The notes under the pieces: model-generated | The model's input: only the letters and a program-made list of their open reading frames with translations | Told to the model about the DNA's origin: nothing | The model's database searches: none | Position numbers and translations under genes: made by a program | NCBI GenBank assembly: GCA_021787535.1 | Contig: JAJYLR010000001.1 | Location: 492,321-556,320, forward strand | Source: a bacterium | GTDB lineage: Bacteria; Patescibacteriota; CPR2; UBA1875; JAJYID01 | Direction: 5' to 3' | DNA: 64,000 bases | Part shown: piece after piece, positions 408-38,421 of the stretch | How positions within the stretch are numbered: position 1 is the first letter of the stretch | Layout: every line of letters begins with the position of its first letter

Positions 408-570
408 GCTTAACTTTTTGAGAATTTAAGAGCCTGTTCAGAGTTCCATATTGAGTTAAAATTTCAATGTAAGCTGTGAACAGGCTCTTAGTCCGTTTAA
501 TAAACATATTCAGAACGGGTTCTCCACCTGCACAAAAGAAAATATACTATCTCTTGATGGCATATTTTCT

Positions 571-593
571 TGGTACCGCGTACGGGATTCGAA
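571..593 (-). other. 23-nt duplicate of tRNA-Glu 3' end (T-loop to CCA), adjacent to GCGGCTCAACCGC hairpin
   Basis: TGGTACCGCGTACGGGATTCGAA identical to 743..765; no D-arm/anticodon arm present. Confidence 0.6.
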
Positions 594-742
594 GCGGCTC
601 AACCGCTCTTTTTATATTCGATTCCAAAACAATAAAACAGTTGAAAAATTGAGACTTTTCGTTGCTTGATTTATGCGGCTTCAGACGAGTTCTCACCCAT
701 ACACACAGAAAACTGCCAAGAAAAGGATTCTTGCCAGTTTTC

Positions 743-819
743 TGGTACCGCGTACGGGATTCGAACCCGTGATCTCCTGGATGAGAACCAGGTATCCTAG
801 GCCACTAGACGAACGCGGC
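743..819 (-). tRNA. tRNA-Glu (anticodon CUC)
   Basis: cloverleaf readable on minus strand: acceptor GCCGCGU/ACGCGGU, anticodon stem CCUGG/CCAGG with loop UUCUCAU, T-loop UUCGAAU, encoded CCA; followed by hairpin CTGGCAAGAA/TTCTTGCCAG + T-run. Confidence 0.85.
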
Positions 820-33096: not shown

Positions 33097-33930
33097 TTAC
33101 ACTAAAACCTTAATCCCAGGTCCCATTGTTGTTGCTAAGGTAATAGACTGAATGTAAGTACCTTTGGCGCCAGATGGCTTGGCATGCTTTAATGCATCCA
33201 TGAATGTATTGTAATTTGTCTCCAGCTTCTTTTCATCAAAAGAAACCTTGCCTATTACTTGATGAACTATCGCATTTTTATCTAACTTGAACTCAACCCT
33301 GCCTGCTTTAAGCTCTTTGACGGCCTTTGTTACGTCAGGTGTAACCGTTCCCGCTTTCGGATTTGGCATCAAACCTTTGGTCCCGAGAATTTTACCCAGT
33401 TTACCAACTTTCGCCATCATATCCGGAGTGGCTACCAGCGTATCAAAGTCCAGTTTTCCTTTTTCAATTTCAGCTATAAGAGAGTCGCCGCCCACTTTAT
33501 CAGCTCCGGCTCCTTTTGCCTCTTTCTCTTTATTCGAATCACAAATTACTGCAACTCTCTTTGTCTTCCCGGTTCCCTCAGGAAGCACTACAGTTCCTCT
33601 GAGCTGCTGGTCTCCTTTTGAAGGGTCTAAACCTAATCTGACATGTATTTCAACCGAAGAATCAAACTTCGTCGTTGAAGTCTTCTGAATAAGACTCATG
33701 GCCTCTTCAACCGTGTAATATTTATCTATTTCTAAAAGCTCAGTAACTTTCCTATATTTTTTGGAATGCTTTCGCTCTTCTTTTGAAAGTTTATTTTTTT
33801 CTTCTTTGGCTTTAGCGGCTTTTGTAACCGGTTTCTCGGATTTTTTGGCAGTTACTTTCTTCCCTGTCTTAACTTTTACCTCTTTTAATTCTGGTGTTTC
33901 TTTAGTCTCGGTTTCTTTCTTCTTTGGCAT
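33097..33930 (-). CDS. rplA: 50S ribosomal protein L1 with lysine-rich N-terminal extension
   Basis: conserved L1 core from [22 protein letters not shown]...; start set at MPKKKETE with AAAGGAG SD; longer ORF-track start runs through a palindromic repeat. Confidence 0.8.
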
Positions 33931-34038
33931 TTTTTCTCCTTTACCCTTCCGTAGCTTTAGCGTAGGAGGGTCGTGGTCCAAACGGCTATCGCCTCCCACA
34001 TTAATTATAGTTCTCATTTTTAAGGGATTTCTCCGCTC

Positions 34039-34066
34039 GTCACTCCGTGAAGTCGGTCGGAATGAC
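34039..34066. repeat. palindromic repeat GTCACTCCGTGAAGTCGGTCGGAATGAC (family, reverse orientation)
   Basis: rc GTCATTCCGACCGACTTCACGGAGTGAC. Confidence 0.5.
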
Positions 34067-34115
34067 AAGCCTGAGATTATACTCAATACACAATACCGAA
34101 TACTCTATACTAACT

Positions 34116-35539: not shown

Positions 35540-35872
35540 CTAAATTTCACTGGATTTGTCAAATGTTTTATGGGATGGGCTCGGGCGCTTTTGCGCCCGA
35601 GTTTTTGCACCTAGACTATTTTGCTTTTTTAATTCTTCTATCGAGAAGATATTATATGACCAGAAACAGCCCTGCACGAAACCTAACCATCGATGAGCTT
35701 TGTCTGTTTTACATATGTTTTGATATTCTCTTATCTTTTGGCACATCCAAAGCACATGACATATCCTCGCTTGATCAGTTCCAGCCAGGTTATTTTCTTC
35801 CAGAGAAAAACCTTTCGTCTCTAAAATCCTCTCATAATCTTGAATAATTTTTAGAAACTTCCTTTCATCCAT
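35540..35872 (-). CDS. hypothetical protein (110 aa)
   Basis: ORF only; no family recognised. Confidence 0.35.
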   Translation of the reverse strand: MDERKFLKIIQDYERILETKGFSLEENNLAGTDQARICHVLWMCQKIREYQNICKTDKAHRWLGFVQGCFWSYNIFSIEELKKQNSLGAKTRAQKRPSPSHKTFDKSSEI

Positions 35873-35874
35873 GC

Positions 35875-36072
35875 CTATCCCGCATCATAATAGCGAATAA
35901 ACTGTCCGCACTTACAGTAAATGTCGCCATCGTTAAAGAAAATATTGTAGTTTTTCACCTCCCAATCCTCTACTCCGGAGCCACACTTGGGACATTTGTC
36001 AATCTGCGAAGTGTTTATACCATGCATCATTCCGCTCACAAAAGTAGTTTTAGTTTCCTTTTCTTTAGCCAT
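35875..36072 (-). CDS. hypothetical zinc-ribbon protein
   Basis: CPKCGSG...CKCGQF two Cys pairs; start placed at MAKEKETK with SD-like AGGGGAAG. Confidence 0.4.
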   Translation of the reverse strand: MAKEKETKTTFVSGMMHGINTSQIDKCPKCGSGVEDWEVKNYNIFFNDGDIYCKCGQFIRYYDAG

Positions 36073-36180
36073 CTTCTTCCCCTTTCCTTTGTTTAGGTGC
36101 AAAATCATTTTCTTACCTATAACACCAAAGCAAAAGCAAGGAGTTCTGACTCAAAAATATTTGAGTAAATAACAGTATGC

Positions 36181-36837
36181 TTGGGGTATAATGGAGATAT
36201 GAATTGGATTCAGAAGGAAATTTTTAGAAAACTAGTTCTAAGTGATGAGCTTCGTTATACAGAACTAAAACCCGAAAGTGTCGAAGGCAATCTCTTCACT
36301 TATCATTTAAATCAATTAGTCTATGACGGCTATGTCACGAAAATAGATAAAAAATATACTTTATCGGAAACTGGGAAGTCTTACGTCAGTTCCATGAGTT
36401 TGGCAACCGGAGCTAAAAGAAAACAGCCTAAAATAGTTGTCATGATTGCCGGAAAAAATGAAAATGGCGAGTTTTTGCTTTTCAAATGGAAAAGGCAACC
36501 GTATAGAGAGCTAGTCAGTTTTCCATTTGGGAAAGTCCAGTATGGCAAACCAGTTCTCGATCTAACCAAAAAAGAACTCGACTGGAAAACAGGACTTAAA
36601 GGCGATTTAAGATACCAGGGAGATATTTATGTACAAACAACAAATGAACATTATCTCGCCCATATTTTTAAATTAAGCGCATTGAGCGGAAAAATTGGAT
36701 CAAATGGCATCCTAGGAAAACCTTTTTGGGGCAAAGTTGAAGAATTAAACGAAAATGAACTGATTCCCGGTTTCAAAGCAATCGTGGAGATCCTGGAAAC
36801 CAAAAAACCTCCATATTTGGAAGAAGTTATAACCTAG
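36181..36837 (+). CDS. putative regulator with N-terminal winged-helix domain and C-terminal Nudix-like fold
   Basis: IQKEIFRKLVLSDELRYTEL...YHLNQLVYDGYV wHTH pattern; C-terminal half degenerate Nudix-like. Confidence 0.35.
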   Translation: MGYNGDMNWIQKEIFRKLVLSDELRYTELKPESVEGNLFTYHLNQLVYDGYVTKIDKKYTLSETGKSYVSSMSLATGAKRKQPKIVVMIAGKNENGEFLLFKWKRQPYRELVSFPFGKVQYGKPVLDLTKKELDWKTGLKGDLRYQGDIYVQTTNEHYLAHIFKLSALSGKIGSNGILGKPFWGKVEELNENELIPGFKAIVEILETKKPPYLEEVIT

Positions 36838-36857
36838 ATTCTATAAATAATTAACTC

Positions 36858-37382
36858 TTATGTTTTTATTCCCTCTAAAGGTAACTGAAGTAAAGCTTTT
36901 CTTAAATTTAAAAACGGCAAGATTTCCTTTTTCCCCTCATAAATCTCAGCTTTTATTACACAACCATTCTGATCATAAATATTAGAAATTACCTTCTCTT
37001 TATCAAAGATCATTGTGTCGCCTGCTGGCAGTTGAATATCTCCGATTTTTTTGCAATCAATAAGATATATATTTTCACCAACCAAAGGGATATTTATATT
37101 TTTATAACACTCTATCTCCCACTTGATATAATCGCTTAGAGGATAATCTACCACATGAATCCTGATTTTCTTTACGTTCTCCTTACCCTCGGCCCATGGT
37201 TTGGCATTTTCTTTCATTATTCTGAGCGATTTTTCCCGATCACCAGCCAGCCAGCTGTCAAGCGACGGCCCGTTATCTTCGCCGTAAAACTGCAGAACTT
37301 CAACTTTAAAAAACTCTTCCTGCATTTCATTCCAAAAAGAGTTAAAAGTCTGGTCAAGATCTTTTTCATCGATGATTTTCAT
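36858..37382 (-). CDS. hypothetical protein (174 aa)
   Basis: ORF only, convergent with preceding gene. Confidence 0.35.
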   Translation of the reverse strand: MKIIDEKDLDQTFNSFWNEMQEEFFKVEVLQFYGEDNGPSLDSWLAGDREKSLRIMKENAKPWAEGKENVKKIRIHVVDYPLSDYIKWEIECYKNINIPLVGENIYLIDCKKIGDIQLPAGDTMIFDKEKVISNIYDQNGCVIKAEIYEGKKEILPFLNLRKALLQLPLEGIKT

Positions 37383-37390
37383 AAAAAATT

Positions 37391-37413
37391 TGGCAGGGGT
37401 GGCAGGCTTCGAA
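37391..37413 (-). other. 23-nt duplicate of tRNA-Trp 3' end, adjacent to GCGGCTCAGCCGC hairpin
   Basis: TGGCAGGGGTGGCAGGCTTCGAA identical to 37570..37592. Confidence 0.6.
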
Positions 37414-37569
37414 GCGGCTCAGCCGCCAGTTTGCAAATACCTTATACTTAATACATTTAGCTTATTTTAGCATAAAATCAATCAATTTTCGATTTTGGCG
37501 TCTTCATAACAGTTTCTCAGCTACCACCCTACAAAACAAGAACCCCATCAAAAGATGGGAACCTTGTCT

Positions 37570-37645
37570 TGGCAGGGGTGGCAGGCTTCGAACCCGCGAC
37601 CTTCGGTTTTGGAGACCGACGCTCTACCAACTGAGCTACACCCCT
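37570..37645 (-). tRNA. tRNA-Trp (anticodon CCA)
   Basis: AGGGGUG...CACCCCU acceptor, D-arm GCUCAGUUGGUAGAGC, anticodon loop CUCCAAA, T-loop UUCGAAG, encoded CCA; terminator hairpin CCCATC/GATGGG downstream. Confidence 0.85.
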
Positions 37646-37853: not shown

Positions 37854-37929
37854 TGGAGCCCACCACCGGGATTGAACCGGTGACCTCATCCTTACCATGG
37901 ATGCGCTCTACCAACTGAGCTAGGTGGGC
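37854..37929 (-). tRNA. tRNA-Thr (anticodon GGU)
   Basis: GCCCACC/GGUGGGC acceptor, anticodon stem CAUCC/GGAUG loop AUGGUAA, T-loop UUCAAAU, encoded CCA. Confidence 0.85.
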
Positions 37930-37949: not shown

Positions 37950-38210
37950 TTATCGCCATTCCCTAGATATTAGCTTCAATTTTTTTTCATGTGACCACTT
38001 CTTAGCCTGTATTTCCCTTTGTCTAGCCTCTGATTTACTGCCAAAAGGTTGCGACACATAAACTAGCTCAAATGGTCCTTGGTCTACTGCAAATTTAGCG
38101 CCATTACCAGAGTTGTGCTTTTTAATTCTCTCCACCAGATCAGTAGTCATGCCCACATATAACCTATTTGTCCTCGCTTTAGCTAAATAAATATACCATG
38201 GTTTCATCAC
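37950..38210 (-). CDS. GIY-YIG nuclease family small protein
   Basis: WYIYLAKARTNRLYVGMTTDLVERIKKHNSG GIY-YIG motif. Confidence 0.7.
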   Translation of the reverse strand: MMKPWYIYLAKARTNRLYVGMTTDLVERIKKHNSGNGAKFAVDQGPFELVYVSQPFGSKSEARQREIQAKKWSHEKKLKLISREWR

Positions 38211-38335: not shown

Positions 38336-38421
38336 TGGTGGCGGGGGAGGGATTCGAACCCCCGAAGGCAAATGCCAGCAGATTTACAGTCTGCCCCGGT
38401 TGACCGCTTCGGTACCCCGCC
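38336..38421 (-). tRNA. tRNA-Tyr (anticodon GUA), long variable arm
   Basis: GGCGGGG/CCCCGCC acceptor, anticodon loop CUGUAAA, extended variable arm, T-loop UUCGAAU, CCA. Confidence 0.85.

What the first reader, a model, noticed from the sequence alone, without database searches (positions are those of the whole stretch)
37391..37645. Second instance: tRNA-Trp with an identical 23-nt 3'-end copy 156 nt downstream and the same hairpin module
Seen: TGGCAGGGGTGGCAGGCTTCGAA occurs at 37570..37592 (the tRNA) and again at 37391..37413, the latter followed by GCGGCTCAGCCGC. The architecture matches the tRNA-Glu locus: same 23-nt boundary (T-loop start to CCA), similar spacing, and the same GCGGCTCARCCGC hairpin. 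Two independent loci sharing a non-tRNA module argues for a specific element or process rather than chance.
Basis: seen in the sequence. Interest (0 to 1): 0.7.

Follow-up and report, generated by a model that had tools for sequence, protein, structure and literature searches.

The report
Mini non-coding cassettes behind tRNA genes
Two tRNA genes in this window are each followed by a 150-180 bp gene-less DNA cassette that ends in a fixed hairpin and an exact copy of the tRNA's last 23 bases; the same cassette sits behind at least six different tRNAs in a small group of uncultivated bacteria, and looks like a very small, previously undescribed insertion element whose enzyme is unknown.

Summary
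tRNA-Trp (37570-37645, minus strand) and tRNA-Glu (743-819, minus strand) are each followed by an exact second copy of bases 54-76 (T-loop to CCA). The copy lies 156 nt (Trp) or 149 nt (Glu) downstream and directly follows GCGGYTGAGCCGC.

It is one family. I found 12 distinct modules behind Trp, Glu, Arg, Tyr, Lys and probably Ser tRNAs, all in low-GC uncultivated genomes related to candidate division WS5.

Every module has the same order:
- a terminator;
- an "X box", a degenerate inverted copy of the same tRNA's T-arm and acceptor strand, with the loop changed to TGAGAAC, then TGAAGNCGC;
- a 62-74 nt AT-rich spacer of free sequence;
- the hairpin;
- the 23-mer.

No module contains a gene or has a recombinase nearby, and none matches an Rfam family.

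Two close relatives (flank 94% identical) differ by exactly one 182-bp module. Truncated older units follow two modules.

Best reading (about 0.42): a non-autonomous cassette inserted by site-specific recombination in the T-loop, which restores the tRNA and displaces its old 3' end. Main rival: a small RNA gene with a tRNA-like 3' end. The enzyme, and how one cassette family matches many tRNAs, remain unexplained.

The parts
37570..37645 (-). tRNA-Trp(cca). Its last 23 nt (37570-37592, T54 to A76) are the proximal copy of the repeat.
   Evidence: ARAGORN; Rfam tRNA, 70.4 bits; pattern search.
37533..37569 (-). Terminator hairpin plus T-run directly after the CCA (agacaaggttcccatcttttgatggggttcttgtttt). 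The 30-nt core is identical to the terminator that follows the distal copy in relative L019.
   Evidence: Terminator scan; sequence; alignment with L019.
37520..37532 (-). X box, 5' segment (gtagggtggtagc). It is an imperfect inverted repeat of the T-stem and acceptor 3' strand of tRNA-Trp, and so also of the distal copy.
   Evidence: RNAduplex with the cognate copy -17.4 kcal/mol against about -8 for non-cognate; local alignment to the reverse complement of the tRNA.
37498..37519 (-). X box core: loop TGAGAAA, then ctgtta, then the conserved TGAAGACGC.
   Evidence: Pattern search, 1 mismatch to the family consensus; family alignment; coordinates.
37427..37497 (-). Spacer of 71 nt, 24% GC. Its length is conserved across the family but its sequence is not. 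It holds an extended -10 promoter-like site, and 15 nt (TTGATTTTATGCTAA) are shared with a stretch just upstream of the DUF6879 gene in L027.
37414..37426 (.). Invariant 13-bp palindromic hairpin motif, GCGGCTGAGCCGC on the tRNA strand, abutting the distal copy.
37391..37413 (-). Distal exact copy of tRNA-Trp bases 54-76 (TTCGAAGCCTGCCACCCCTGCCA). The DUF6879 gene starts 8 nt further on.
743..819 (-). tRNA-Glu(ctc). Its last 23 nt (743-765) are the proximal copy of the repeat.
708..742 (-). Terminator-like 17-bp inverted repeat (94% complementary) plus T-run directly after the CCA of tRNA-Glu.
   Evidence: Inverted repeat I2; coordinates.
675..707 (-). X box of the Glu module: tgtgtgtatggg, TGAGAAC, tcgtc, TGAAGCCGC.
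   Evidence: (cognate duplex -14.5 kcal/mol).
607..674 (-). Spacer of 68 nt, 25% GC. It is unrelated in sequence to the spacer of the otherwise 88% identical L017 module.
594..606 (.). Hairpin motif GCGGTTGAGCCGC on the tRNA strand. This is the only variant in the family; it gives a G.U pair on the tRNA strand and a C.A mismatch on the other.
571..593 (-). Distal exact copy of tRNA-Glu bases 54-76 (TTCGAATCCCGTACGCGGTACCA).
498..570 (-). Truncated second unit: another terminator-like hairpin (534-570), then a diverged X box (gtgcaggtggagaacccgttctgaatatg) with no hairpin or copy. I read it as the remnant of an older module.
   Evidence: Inverted repeat I4. The same arrangement occurs in L021, where 27 of 27 nt of the X core are repeated.

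Best explanation
Each module is a small (about 150-180 bp), gene-less insertion cassette that sits at the 3' end of a tRNA gene. I infer that it entered by conservative site-specific recombination with the crossover in the T-loop (TTCGAA).

The cassette brings its own replacement for tRNA bases 54-76 and a terminator, so the tRNA stays intact. The tRNA's original 3' end is pushed to the far side. There it survives as the 23-nt copy joined to the cassette's fixed end, the hairpin GCGGCTGAGCCGC. In integrase terms, the tRNA is attL and hairpin plus copy is attR.

The conserved primary-sequence motifs (hairpin, TGAGAAC, TGAAGNCGC) would be the sites the recombination machinery needs. The AT-rich spacer only has to keep its length. 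The enzyme is not in the cassette and must act in trans. New insertions land next to the tRNA and push older units outward, where they decay.

Shown: the discrete unit bounded by the 23-bp repeat; the conserved end motifs; empty and occupied sites; truncated outer units; and the absence of genes.

Inferred: the type of recombinase, the crossover point, any excised intermediate, and how the cassette comes to match each tRNA.
For: 1. The repeat runs exactly from T54 to A76 at all six tRNA types. It is perfect in 11 of 12 distinct modules. Partial tRNA copies flanking an insert are the accepted hallmark of integrase-mediated insertion into tRNA genes.

2. Empty and occupied sites exist in close relatives. 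L037 has tRNA-Glu followed directly by 'tataaaaattccatacggaa...'. L042 has a 182-bp module between the CCA and that same flank. The flank is 160/170 identical and the tRNA 76/77.

3. In L042 the distal copy carries 2 substitutions (21/23) while the tRNA's own end is intact. This is expected if the distal copy is a displaced, non-functional 3' end.

4. Truncated second units (terminator plus X box only) follow the copy in the window's Glu locus and in L021. This fits successive insertions at one site.

5. Module types do not follow host relatedness. L042, whose flank resembles L037 and L017, carries the L002-type module (85% in terminator plus X). L017 carries the window-type module (88%). The window's post-tRNA terminator is 30/30 identical to L019's post-copy terminator, although the neighbouring protein is only 62% identical.

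6. What is conserved is primary sequence. The hairpin is identical in 11 of 12 modules, alongside TGAGAAC and TGAAGNCGC. The tRNA-derived helices decay in several members. This fits protein or DNA recognition better than a conserved RNA fold.

7. There is no ORF in any module and no Rfam match.
Against: No recombinase or transposase was found. Of the ten genes checked next to or near the modules in seven related loci, none was one; an IS630-like HTH ORF lies in L005 but not beside its module. No such family recurred among 53 larger ORFs of those loci, and none was among 20 mid-sized ORFs of the window.

No larger parent element with this hairpin end turned up in 185,579 species genomes, JGI metagenomes, IMG/VR, phages or plasmids.

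One cassette family serving six tRNAs needs either six enzyme specificities or an enzyme that reads only the shared T-loop. Neither is shown.

The X box, an inverted cognate-specific pseudo-T-arm with a changed loop, has no role in a textbook att site.

A double-stranded circle of about 170 bp would be very strained.

Modules are identical between samples of the same species, so no ongoing excision is visible.

The empty site in L037 could equally come from precise deletion between the 23-bp repeats. The mismatch between module type and host tree could come from differential loss out of tandem arrays.
Confidence: 0.42

Rival explanations
1. The module is a small RNA gene whose product carries a tRNA-like handle. 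The X-box 5' segment pairs with the copied T-stem and acceptor strand, giving a 9-12 bp mimic of the acceptor/T-arm helix with a free NCCA tail. The RNA would then be trimmed and stabilised like a tRNA (RNase P at the 5' end, tRNA-type trimming back to CCA at the 3' end). The spacer would be the variable payload. The 23-nt repeat would be there for function, not as a recombination scar.
For: - Cognate X-5'/copy duplexes average -13.8 kcal/mol against -7.9 for non-cognate pairs, and the closing stem appears in the minimum-energy fold of at least 6 of 10 modules.
- Most departures from perfect complementarity are U.G pairs on the tRNA strand (my reading of the sequences).
- The one hairpin variant (GCGGTTGAGCCGC) keeps pairing only on that strand.
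- By my reading of the flanks, 9 of 10 copies are followed by a terminator-like hairpin and T-run, as the tRNA itself is.
- Spacer length is constrained to 62-74 nt.
- The hairpin and copy are conserved although neutral DNA between these hosts is saturated.
Against: - Fold z-scores are modest, from -0.2 to -3.5.
- The closing stem is weak in L005, L007, L021 and L027.
- The local X hairpin cannot form in the three Trp modules (sequences), so no helix apart from the hairpin is universally kept.
- A terminator-like hairpin sits between the tRNA and the module in most cases, leaving no room for a promoter before the X box.
- Promoter-like sites in the spacer are no commoner on one strand than the other.
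- The payload is unrelated between the window and L017, so it has no conserved target.
- A structural mimic would not need 23/23 identity.
- The module is dispensable in a close relative (L037) and is decaying in L042.
- No Rfam family matches.
Confidence: 0.22
2. The modules are dead scars. Ordinary prophages or genomic islands once integrated into these tRNA genes, and later deletions removed everything except the two att arms.
For: Partial tRNA repeats and degenerate remnants next to tRNA genes are common after integration. The regions behind these tRNAs are variable. The window has a GIY-YIG ORF where L019 has 4 nt and L005 has a module. The DUF6879 and wHTH-NUDIX genes are shuffled between the window, L019 and L027.
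Against: Independent deletions would not leave the same 84-95 nt distance from X loop to hairpin in 11 modules at six tRNAs. Dead scars would not keep an identical hairpin and near-identical X core across hosts whose neutral DNA is saturated. No intact parent element with this end exists in any collection scanned.
Confidence: 0.12
3. Target recognition by nucleic-acid pairing. The cassette's own X box (complementary to the tRNA gene's 3' strand) and its 23-mer (identical to it) act as guides. A single trans-acting enzyme, or a reverse-transcription and template-switch process that starts at the tRNA's CCA end, could then place cassettes at many different tRNAs. This is analogous to IS110 bridge RNAs, group II intron EBS/IBS pairing, or the tRNA-matching guide of type V-K CRISPR transposons.
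For: Three cassette segments are specific to the neighbouring tRNA at all six tRNA types, while everything between them is universal. The X box reads like a cDNA of tRNA positions 49 to about 72. The hairpin directly precedes a 23-nt target-identical stretch, which is the layout of Cas12/TnpB-type guides (my own knowledge, not tested).
Against: No reverse transcriptase, IS110-type, TnpB/Cas12 or TnsB-type gene is near any module. No ωRNA, bridge-RNA or intron family matches in Rfam. The supposed scaffold (the spacer) is not conserved. The guide-like X segment is degenerate in four modules.
Confidence: 0.1
4. Local duplication only. The 3' part of each tRNA gene was duplicated by replication slippage or fold-back at the terminator and then homogenised by gene conversion. 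The hairpin would simply be a terminator for antisense transcription.
For: The X box mirrors the tRNA's 3' third across the terminator, as fold-back priming would produce. On the opposite strand, the Glu hairpin followed by CTTTTTATAT passes the terminator scan.
Against: Independent duplications at six tRNAs could not create the same hairpin, the same TGAGAAC loop and the same TGAAGNCGC motif. The Trp hairpin is not called as a terminator on either strand. The hairpin occurs nowhere else in the window as a terminator.
Confidence: 0.04

Closest known systems
Integrase-mediated insertion of prophages, genomic islands and tycheposons into tRNA genes, with T-loop-type att sites
   Same: The direct repeat is the 3' part of the tRNA, starting in the T-loop and running to the CCA. 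The tRNA is restored by element-borne sequence. Repeated insertions push older units outward. Sites are present or absent among relatives.
   Different: Known elements are kilobases long (9-23 kb) and encode their integrase. These modules are 150-180 bp with no gene, and no parent element was found. One family serves at least six tRNAs. Each module carries an inverted pseudo-T-arm (the X box).
CIMEs (cis-mobilizable elements): att-flanked elements that have lost their recombination and transfer genes
   Same: They are bounded by attL- and attR-like repeats, lack an integrase, and would depend on an enzyme supplied in trans. The concept is as listed for ICEberg and from my own knowledge.
   Different: CIMEs are recognisable deletion derivatives of a resident ICE or IME and are usually kilobases long. 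Here there is no related autonomous element, and the size is uniform and minimal.
Integron cassettes (attC) and CTX-phage/IMEX folded single-strand att sites
   Same: These are small units that accumulate in arrays at one site. Their recombination sites are defined by imperfect inverted repeats around a variable centre, with deliberately mismatched central bases. The TGAGAA versus TTCGAA loops flanked by complementary arms recall this (my own knowledge; anatomy).
   Different: There is no integron integrase, attI or dif context. Only one arm of the would-be folded site pairs. Integron junctions share 6-7 nt, not 23. None of this could be tested here.
tRNA-like domains in bacterial non-coding RNAs (tmRNA, YrlA Y RNAs)
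   Same: An acceptor/T-arm-like helix would be formed by the two ends of a longer RNA, with T-loop bases and a 3' NCCA. One search lists the Y RNA paper PMC4201824.
   Different: No Rfam model matches. The T-stem 5' strand is not next to the T-loop. The helix is not conserved in all members. The sequence copies the neighbouring tRNA exactly rather than mimicking a generic one.
tRNA-matching homing guide of type V-K CRISPR-associated transposons
   Same: A short hairpin-forming repeat remnant is followed directly by a stretch identical to a tRNA gene's 3' region, located downstream of that tRNA (my own knowledge).
   Different: No Cas12k/TnsB/TnsC/TniQ genes, CRISPR array or transposon ends are present. 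The copy lies 150 nt rather than kilobases from the tRNA.

Membership tests
tRNA-integrating integrative element (tyrosine-integrase att system) | The element is flanked by direct repeats made of the 3' part of the target tRNA gene, with one complete and one partial tRNA. | tested here: met
   Exact 23-nt repeats, T54 to A76, at both window loci and in 9 of the 10 other distinct modules. L042 is the exception, at 21/23.
tRNA-integrating integrative element (tyrosine-integrase att system) | An integrase gene lies inside the element, next to one att site. | tested here: not met
   No ORF in the modules. No integrase in the flanking genes checked by Pfam, and none recurring among 53 larger ORFs of the related loci.
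tRNA-integrating integrative element (tyrosine-integrase att system) | Empty (attB) and occupied sites exist among related genomes, with boundaries exactly at the repeat. | tested here: met
   L037 empty against L042 occupied: 182-bp difference, flank 160/170 identical.
tRNA-integrating integrative element (tyrosine-integrase att system) | Excision to a circular form carrying attP, catalysed by the integrase. | not testable with these tools
   This needs raw reads or experiments. Contigs of the same species from different samples carry identical modules.
CIME (cis-mobilizable element) | Flanked by att sites and lacking recombination and transfer genes. | tested here: met
CIME (cis-mobilizable element) | Derived from, and sharing att sites with, a related autonomous ICE, IME or prophage. 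| tested here: not met
   Every family match to hairpin plus TTCGAA plus N14 plus CCA in the genome and metagenome collections is the short form, and IMG/VR gave no match at all. Nothing similar in phages or plasmids.
MITE or other transposase-driven miniature element | Family-constant terminal inverted repeats, plus a short target-site duplication at varied sites. | tested here: not met
   The inverted repeat (X 5' segment against the copy) changes with the tRNA. The duplication is always the same 23 tRNA positions, and sites are only tRNA 3' ends.
Known RNA families (Rfam 15: tRNA-like, tmRNA, Y RNA, ωRNA, ribozymes, riboswitches) | A covariance-model match at or near the gathering score. 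| tested here: not met
   Only the five tRNAs pass in the window. Permissive scans of both modules give only chance-level hairpin hits.
   On the tRNA strand the hairpin is followed by TTCGAA, not a T-run. On the other strand only the Glu copy passes the scan. The motif occurs only at the two tRNA-fragment sites in 64 kb.
RNA-guided systems (CAST homing guide, TnpB/IscB ωRNA, IS110 bridge RNA) | The guide RNA gene lies adjacent to its effector or recombinase gene. | tested here: not met
   No such gene lies beside any of the modules whose neighbours were checked, nor among the window ORFs checked.

The most novel reading that the evidence does not exclude
The cassette is retargetable. Its internal X box (an inverted copy of the neighbouring tRNA's T-arm and acceptor strand, with a deliberately inactive loop) and its 23-mer specify the target by base pairing or by folding into a mimic of the tRNA gene. 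One trans-acting enzyme could then insert gene-less cassettes behind many different tRNAs. That would be a new, minimal kind of nucleic-acid-guided or structure-guided site-specific recombination in candidate-phylum bacteria.
Probability: 0.12. Interest if true: 0.9.

Novelty: new variant of a known kind. Interest (0 to 1): 0.6.

Why it matters
If these are insertion cassettes, they would, as far as I know, be the smallest tRNA-targeting integrative units described. They carry nothing but their own recombination signals, yet they are matched to at least six different tRNAs.

That raises a concrete and testable question: how is target specificity reset? The candidates are many enzymes, one enzyme that reads only the universal T-loop, or guidance by the cassette's own inverted tRNA copy.

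If instead they are RNA genes, they would be a natural case of a tRNA handle used to process and stabilise a small RNA.

Either way there is a practical point. They create partial tRNA copies that can confuse tRNA annotation and island-boundary calling in small genomes of uncultivated bacteria.

Tried and rejected
- **Chance or a common terminator.** Rejected. There are 0 expected matches for the 23-mer, the hairpin occurs only at the two sites, and all 19 high-GC database hits lack a second copy of their 23-mer.
- **A known RNA family.** Rejected. Rfam found nothing, at gathering scores or in permissive mode.
- **A hidden protein gene in the module.** Rejected. Only spurious short ORFs appear. 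The shared 'FEAAQP' peptide merely reflects the conserved motif.
- **An adjacent recombinase.** Looked for and not found near the modules or in the window.
- **A link to the neighbouring DUF6879 gene.** Rejected. In L019 that gene lies 2 kb away, and it is absent from the non-Trp loci.
- **A link to the GIY-YIG ORF behind tRNA-Tyr.** No homologue in any related locus.
- **A phage or plasmid origin.** No meaningful blastn hit, and the viral contig scan was empty.
- **A promoter in the spacer driving the hairpin and copy.** Promoter-like sites occur in 6 of 10 modules on the tRNA strand and 4 of 10 on the other. That is not significant in 25% GC sequence.
- **The spacer as an acquired, spacer-like sequence.** No informative matches of 12 nt or longer elsewhere, apart from the one stretch shared with L027 just upstream of its DUF6879 gene.
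- **A T-box reading of AGGGTGGTA in the Trp X box.** Dismissed as a by-product of the tRNA-Trp sequence, because the other modules lack it.
- **A well-folded RNA.** Only weakly supported.
- **Fetching the window strain's neighbours by exact protein look-up.** This returned only short identical contigs.
Full report
**1. Observation**

The 23-mer TGGCAGGGGTGGCAGGCTTCGAA occurs exactly twice in the window, at 37391-37413 and 37570-37592. This holds even with 3 mismatches allowed, and none is expected by chance. The second occurrence is the 3' end (T-loop to CCA) of tRNA-Trp(cca), 37570-37645 on the minus strand.

The distal copy lies 156 nt downstream of the tRNA and directly abuts GCGGCTCAGCCGC at 37414-37426. 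tRNA-Glu(ctc), 743-819 on the minus strand, shows the same thing. Its own last 23 nt are repeated at 571-593, next to GCGGCTCAACCGC at 594-606, with a gap of 149 nt. The hairpin motif is found nowhere else in the 64 kb.

**2. Anatomy, read on the tRNA strand**

Both intervals share more than the hairpin. After the CCA the order is as follows.

- (a) A terminator-type hairpin with a T-run (Trp 37533-37569; Glu 708-742).
- (b) An "X box", in four pieces:
  - a 12-13 nt segment that is an imperfect reverse complement of the same tRNA's T-stem and acceptor 3' strand;
  - the loop TGAGAAC (TGAGAAA in the Trp module);
  - about 5 nt that mostly repeat the tRNA's T-stem 3' strand;
  - the conserved TGAAGNCGC (Trp 37498-37532; Glu 675-707).
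- (c) An AT-rich spacer (71 and 68 nt, 24-25% GC).
- (d) The 13-nt palindromic hairpin.
- (e) The exact copy of bases 54-76.

Behind the Glu copy there is another terminator-like hairpin and a diverged X box (498-570), but no further hairpin or copy.

**3. The family outside the window**

I scanned one genome for each of 185,579 species for the hairpin, TTCGAA, 14 free bases and CCA. This gave 25 loci.

- Eighteen are high-GC (52-68%) with no second copy of their 23-mer, and are chance matches.
- Seven are low-GC (39-43%) contigs from five unclassified "bacterium" MAGs.
- Six of the seven carry a tRNA whose last 23 nt are identical to the copy, 148-182 nt upstream (23-mer start to start). The seventh (L007) starts inside a module.

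The tRNAs are Glu(ctc) twice, Arg(cct), Tyr(gta), Trp(cca) and Lys(ttt). L007's copy looks like a Ser acceptor end, which is my own reading. The JGI metagenome scan added one more Trp module (L027) and one chance hit. IMG/VR gave nothing. Protein-guided look-ups added a further Glu module (L042, with L043 showing the same sequence) and copies identical to known ones from other samples.

That makes 12 distinct modules, including the two in the window. SecY places the host near candidate division WS5 (76% identity), with Patescibacteria next at 60-63%.

**4. What is conserved and what is not**

- The hairpin is identical in 11 of 12 modules. The one variant, the window's Glu module with C changed to T, keeps a G.U pair on the tRNA strand only.
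- TGAGAAC and TGAAGNCGC vary at one or two positions.
- The distance from X loop to hairpin is 84-95 nt in 11 modules.
- The copy equals the tRNA in 11 of 12 modules.
- The spacer is not conserved. The window and L017 Glu modules are 88% identical in terminator plus X box, but at shuffle level (57% against 58±4) in the spacer. L002 and L042 are 85% identical in terminator plus X box and 68% in the spacer.

The hosts are well diverged. NusG is 87-95% identical, a penicillin-binding peptidase 84-89%, a histidine kinase 56-67%, and the neighbouring 218-aa protein 62%. Unconstrained DNA should therefore be saturated. The hairpin, X core and copy are being kept by some constraint.

**5. The segments specific to each tRNA**

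The X 5' segment pairs with the cognate copy at -13.8 kcal/mol on average, against -7.9 for non-cognate combinations. Pairing is strong for Trp (window, L019), all Glu modules and Arg. It is weak for L005, L007, L021 and L027.

Local alignment shows that the X box is best described as an inverted copy of tRNA positions 49 to about 72, with TTCGAA changed to TGAGAA. For example, L002 has GCGTATGGG-TGAGAACCCGTTAT against GCGTACGGGATTCGAACCCGTGAT.

From the sequences, the small X hairpin can form in the Glu, Arg, Tyr and Lys modules but not in the three Trp modules. No helix except the hairpin is therefore universal.

**6. Not a known RNA, and no gene**

Rfam finds only the five tRNAs at gathering scores. 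In permissive mode it finds nothing but chance hairpin hits. RNA folding z-scores are -0.2 to -3.5.

The modules hold no credible ORF. The ten genes checked next to or near the modules are unrelated to each other (DUF6879, wHTH-NUDIX, GNAT, TPR, an IS630-like HTH ORF and unknowns). None is a recombinase, and no such family recurs among 53 larger ORFs of the related loci. Twenty mid-sized ORFs of the window are housekeeping genes, including the cell-division cluster, DprA, Pth, RpoA and EF-Tu. Phage and plasmid collections hold nothing similar.

**7. Evidence that the module is a discrete, gained-or-lost unit**

- **Empty against occupied.** L037 has tRNA-Glu followed at once by 'tataaaaattccatacggaattttttt', a promoter and a gene. 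L042 has the same flank (160/170 identical; tRNA 76/77), but with a 182-bp module between the CCA and that flank. L017 has the same terminator behind its copy.
- **A decaying copy.** In L042 the distal copy has two substitutions (TTCGAATCCCGTACGCAGTTCCA) and the X core has one. The distal copy can therefore decay while the tRNA stays intact.
- **A partial loss.** At the Trp locus, L030 has the tRNA, the first terminator, a remnant of the X 5' segment (gtgtgtggtagtc) and then the second terminator. It lacks everything from TGAGAAC to the copy.
- **Variable sites.** L005's divergent tRNA-Trp (T-loop TTCGAGT) has no module. tRNA-Tyr carries a module in L005. In L019 it is 4 nt from the next tRNA, and in the window it is followed by a GIY-YIG ORF.
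- **Truncated outer units.** Terminator plus X box follows the copy in the window's Glu locus and in L021, where 27/27 nt of the X core are repeated.
- **Mismatch with the host tree.** L042, close to L037 and L017, carries the L002-type module, while L017 carries the window type. The window's post-tRNA terminator is 30/30 identical to L019's post-copy terminator.
- **Stability within species.** Contigs of the same species from different samples carry identical modules.

**8. Interpretation**

A direct repeat of the tRNA's 3' part, starting in the T-loop and bounding an insert, is the classical footprint of site-specific integration into a tRNA gene. The literature held here describes it for elements of 9-23 kb and for tycheposons. 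It also describes newer insertions pushing older ones outward.

Five observations fit a very small non-autonomous cassette of that kind:

- the clean empty and occupied pair;
- the decaying distal copy;
- the truncated outer units;
- module types that do not follow the host tree;
- conservation of primary-sequence motifs rather than helices.

In that reading the tRNA is attL and hairpin plus copy is attR. The element-borne 54-76 segment plus terminator keeps the tRNA functional.

Several things are not shown:

- the enzyme;
- the crossover point (I infer TTCGAA, which is palindromic and shared by all target tRNAs found, although my search pattern required it);
- any excised form;
- how three cassette segments come to match each tRNA;
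- the role of the X box. One possibility is an extra binding site whose changed loop prevents harmful recombination with the tRNA. That is speculation.

The empty site could also come from precise deletion between the repeats. The mismatch with the host tree could come from differential loss out of tandem arrays.

**9. Rivals**

- **A small RNA with a tRNA-like handle.** This explains the cognate pairing, the U.G-biased substitutions, the terminator-like hairpins behind the copies and the length-constrained spacer. It is weakened by non-universal helices, modest fold scores, a terminator-like hairpin between tRNA and module, a non-conserved payload, and dispensability in a close relative.
- **Dead scars of large elements.** These cannot explain the uniform size and conserved motifs.
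- **Guide-based or reverse-transcription mechanisms.** These would neatly explain the cognate segments, but no supporting gene was found.
- **Purely local duplication.** This cannot create the shared non-tRNA motifs.

**10. Verdict**

The feature is real, recurrent and specific. It is a family of gene-less modules at tRNA 3' ends in a narrow clade of uncultivated bacteria related to WS5. It is absent from Rfam, and four full-text literature searches turned up no description of it.

It is closest to att-flanked integrative elements, but it fails the integrase-within-element criterion. It also has features no textbook att site has: the X box, service to many tRNAs, and its minimal size. I file it as a new variant of a known kind, with moderate confidence (0.42) in the insertion-cassette mechanism and interest of about 0.6.

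Noticed in passing
window 37950-38210 (minus strand), between tRNA-Tyr (38336-38421) and tRNA-Thr (37854-37929): A free-standing 86-aa GIY-YIG nuclease-domain ORF fills the gap between two tRNAs. In relative L019 those tRNAs are only 4 nt apart, and in L005 the gap holds a module. The intergenic space behind tRNA-Tyr is therefore an insertion hot spot. No homologue of this ORF occurs in any related locus fetched.
   Followed up: partly
window 35540-37382, between the Trp module and secE: A variable four-gene block (DUF6879, a 218-aa wHTH/NUDIX-like protein on the opposite strand, and 77-aa and 110-aa ORFs) sits where many bacteria have tRNA-Trp directly before secE-nusG. Gene order and content differ in L019, L027 and L030. 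DUF6879 starts 8 nt after the 23-mer copy with no visible ribosome-binding site. A 15-nt promoter-like stretch just upstream of L027's DUF6879 gene lies inside the window's module spacer.
   Followed up: partly
window 33097-34086 (minus strand): Ribosomal protein L1 is 329 aa long. The Pfam domain covers only residues 134-323, leaving an N-terminal extension of about 130 aa with no match.
   Followed up: no
L005 4692-5360 (minus strand), between rpmG and a divergent tRNA-Trp: A 223-aa ORF with IS630-type and homeodomain-like HTH matches. It may be a transposase fragment. It lies next to a tRNA-Trp whose sequence (T-loop TTCGAGT) differs from the Trp tRNA of the other genomes and which has no module.
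   Followed up: no
window 427-490: A 17-bp inverted repeat (94% complementary, 30-nt loop) lies between the truncated second X box and the end of the convergent gene at 407. It is probably that gene's terminator. It draws several chance microRNA-model hits in permissive Rfam mode.
   Followed up: no
window 37620-37638 and 37904-37922: A 19-nt exact repeat, CGCTCTACCAACTGAGCTA. It is simply the shared D-arm and acceptor region of tRNA-Trp and tRNA-Thr(ggt), not part of the module.
   Followed up: yes
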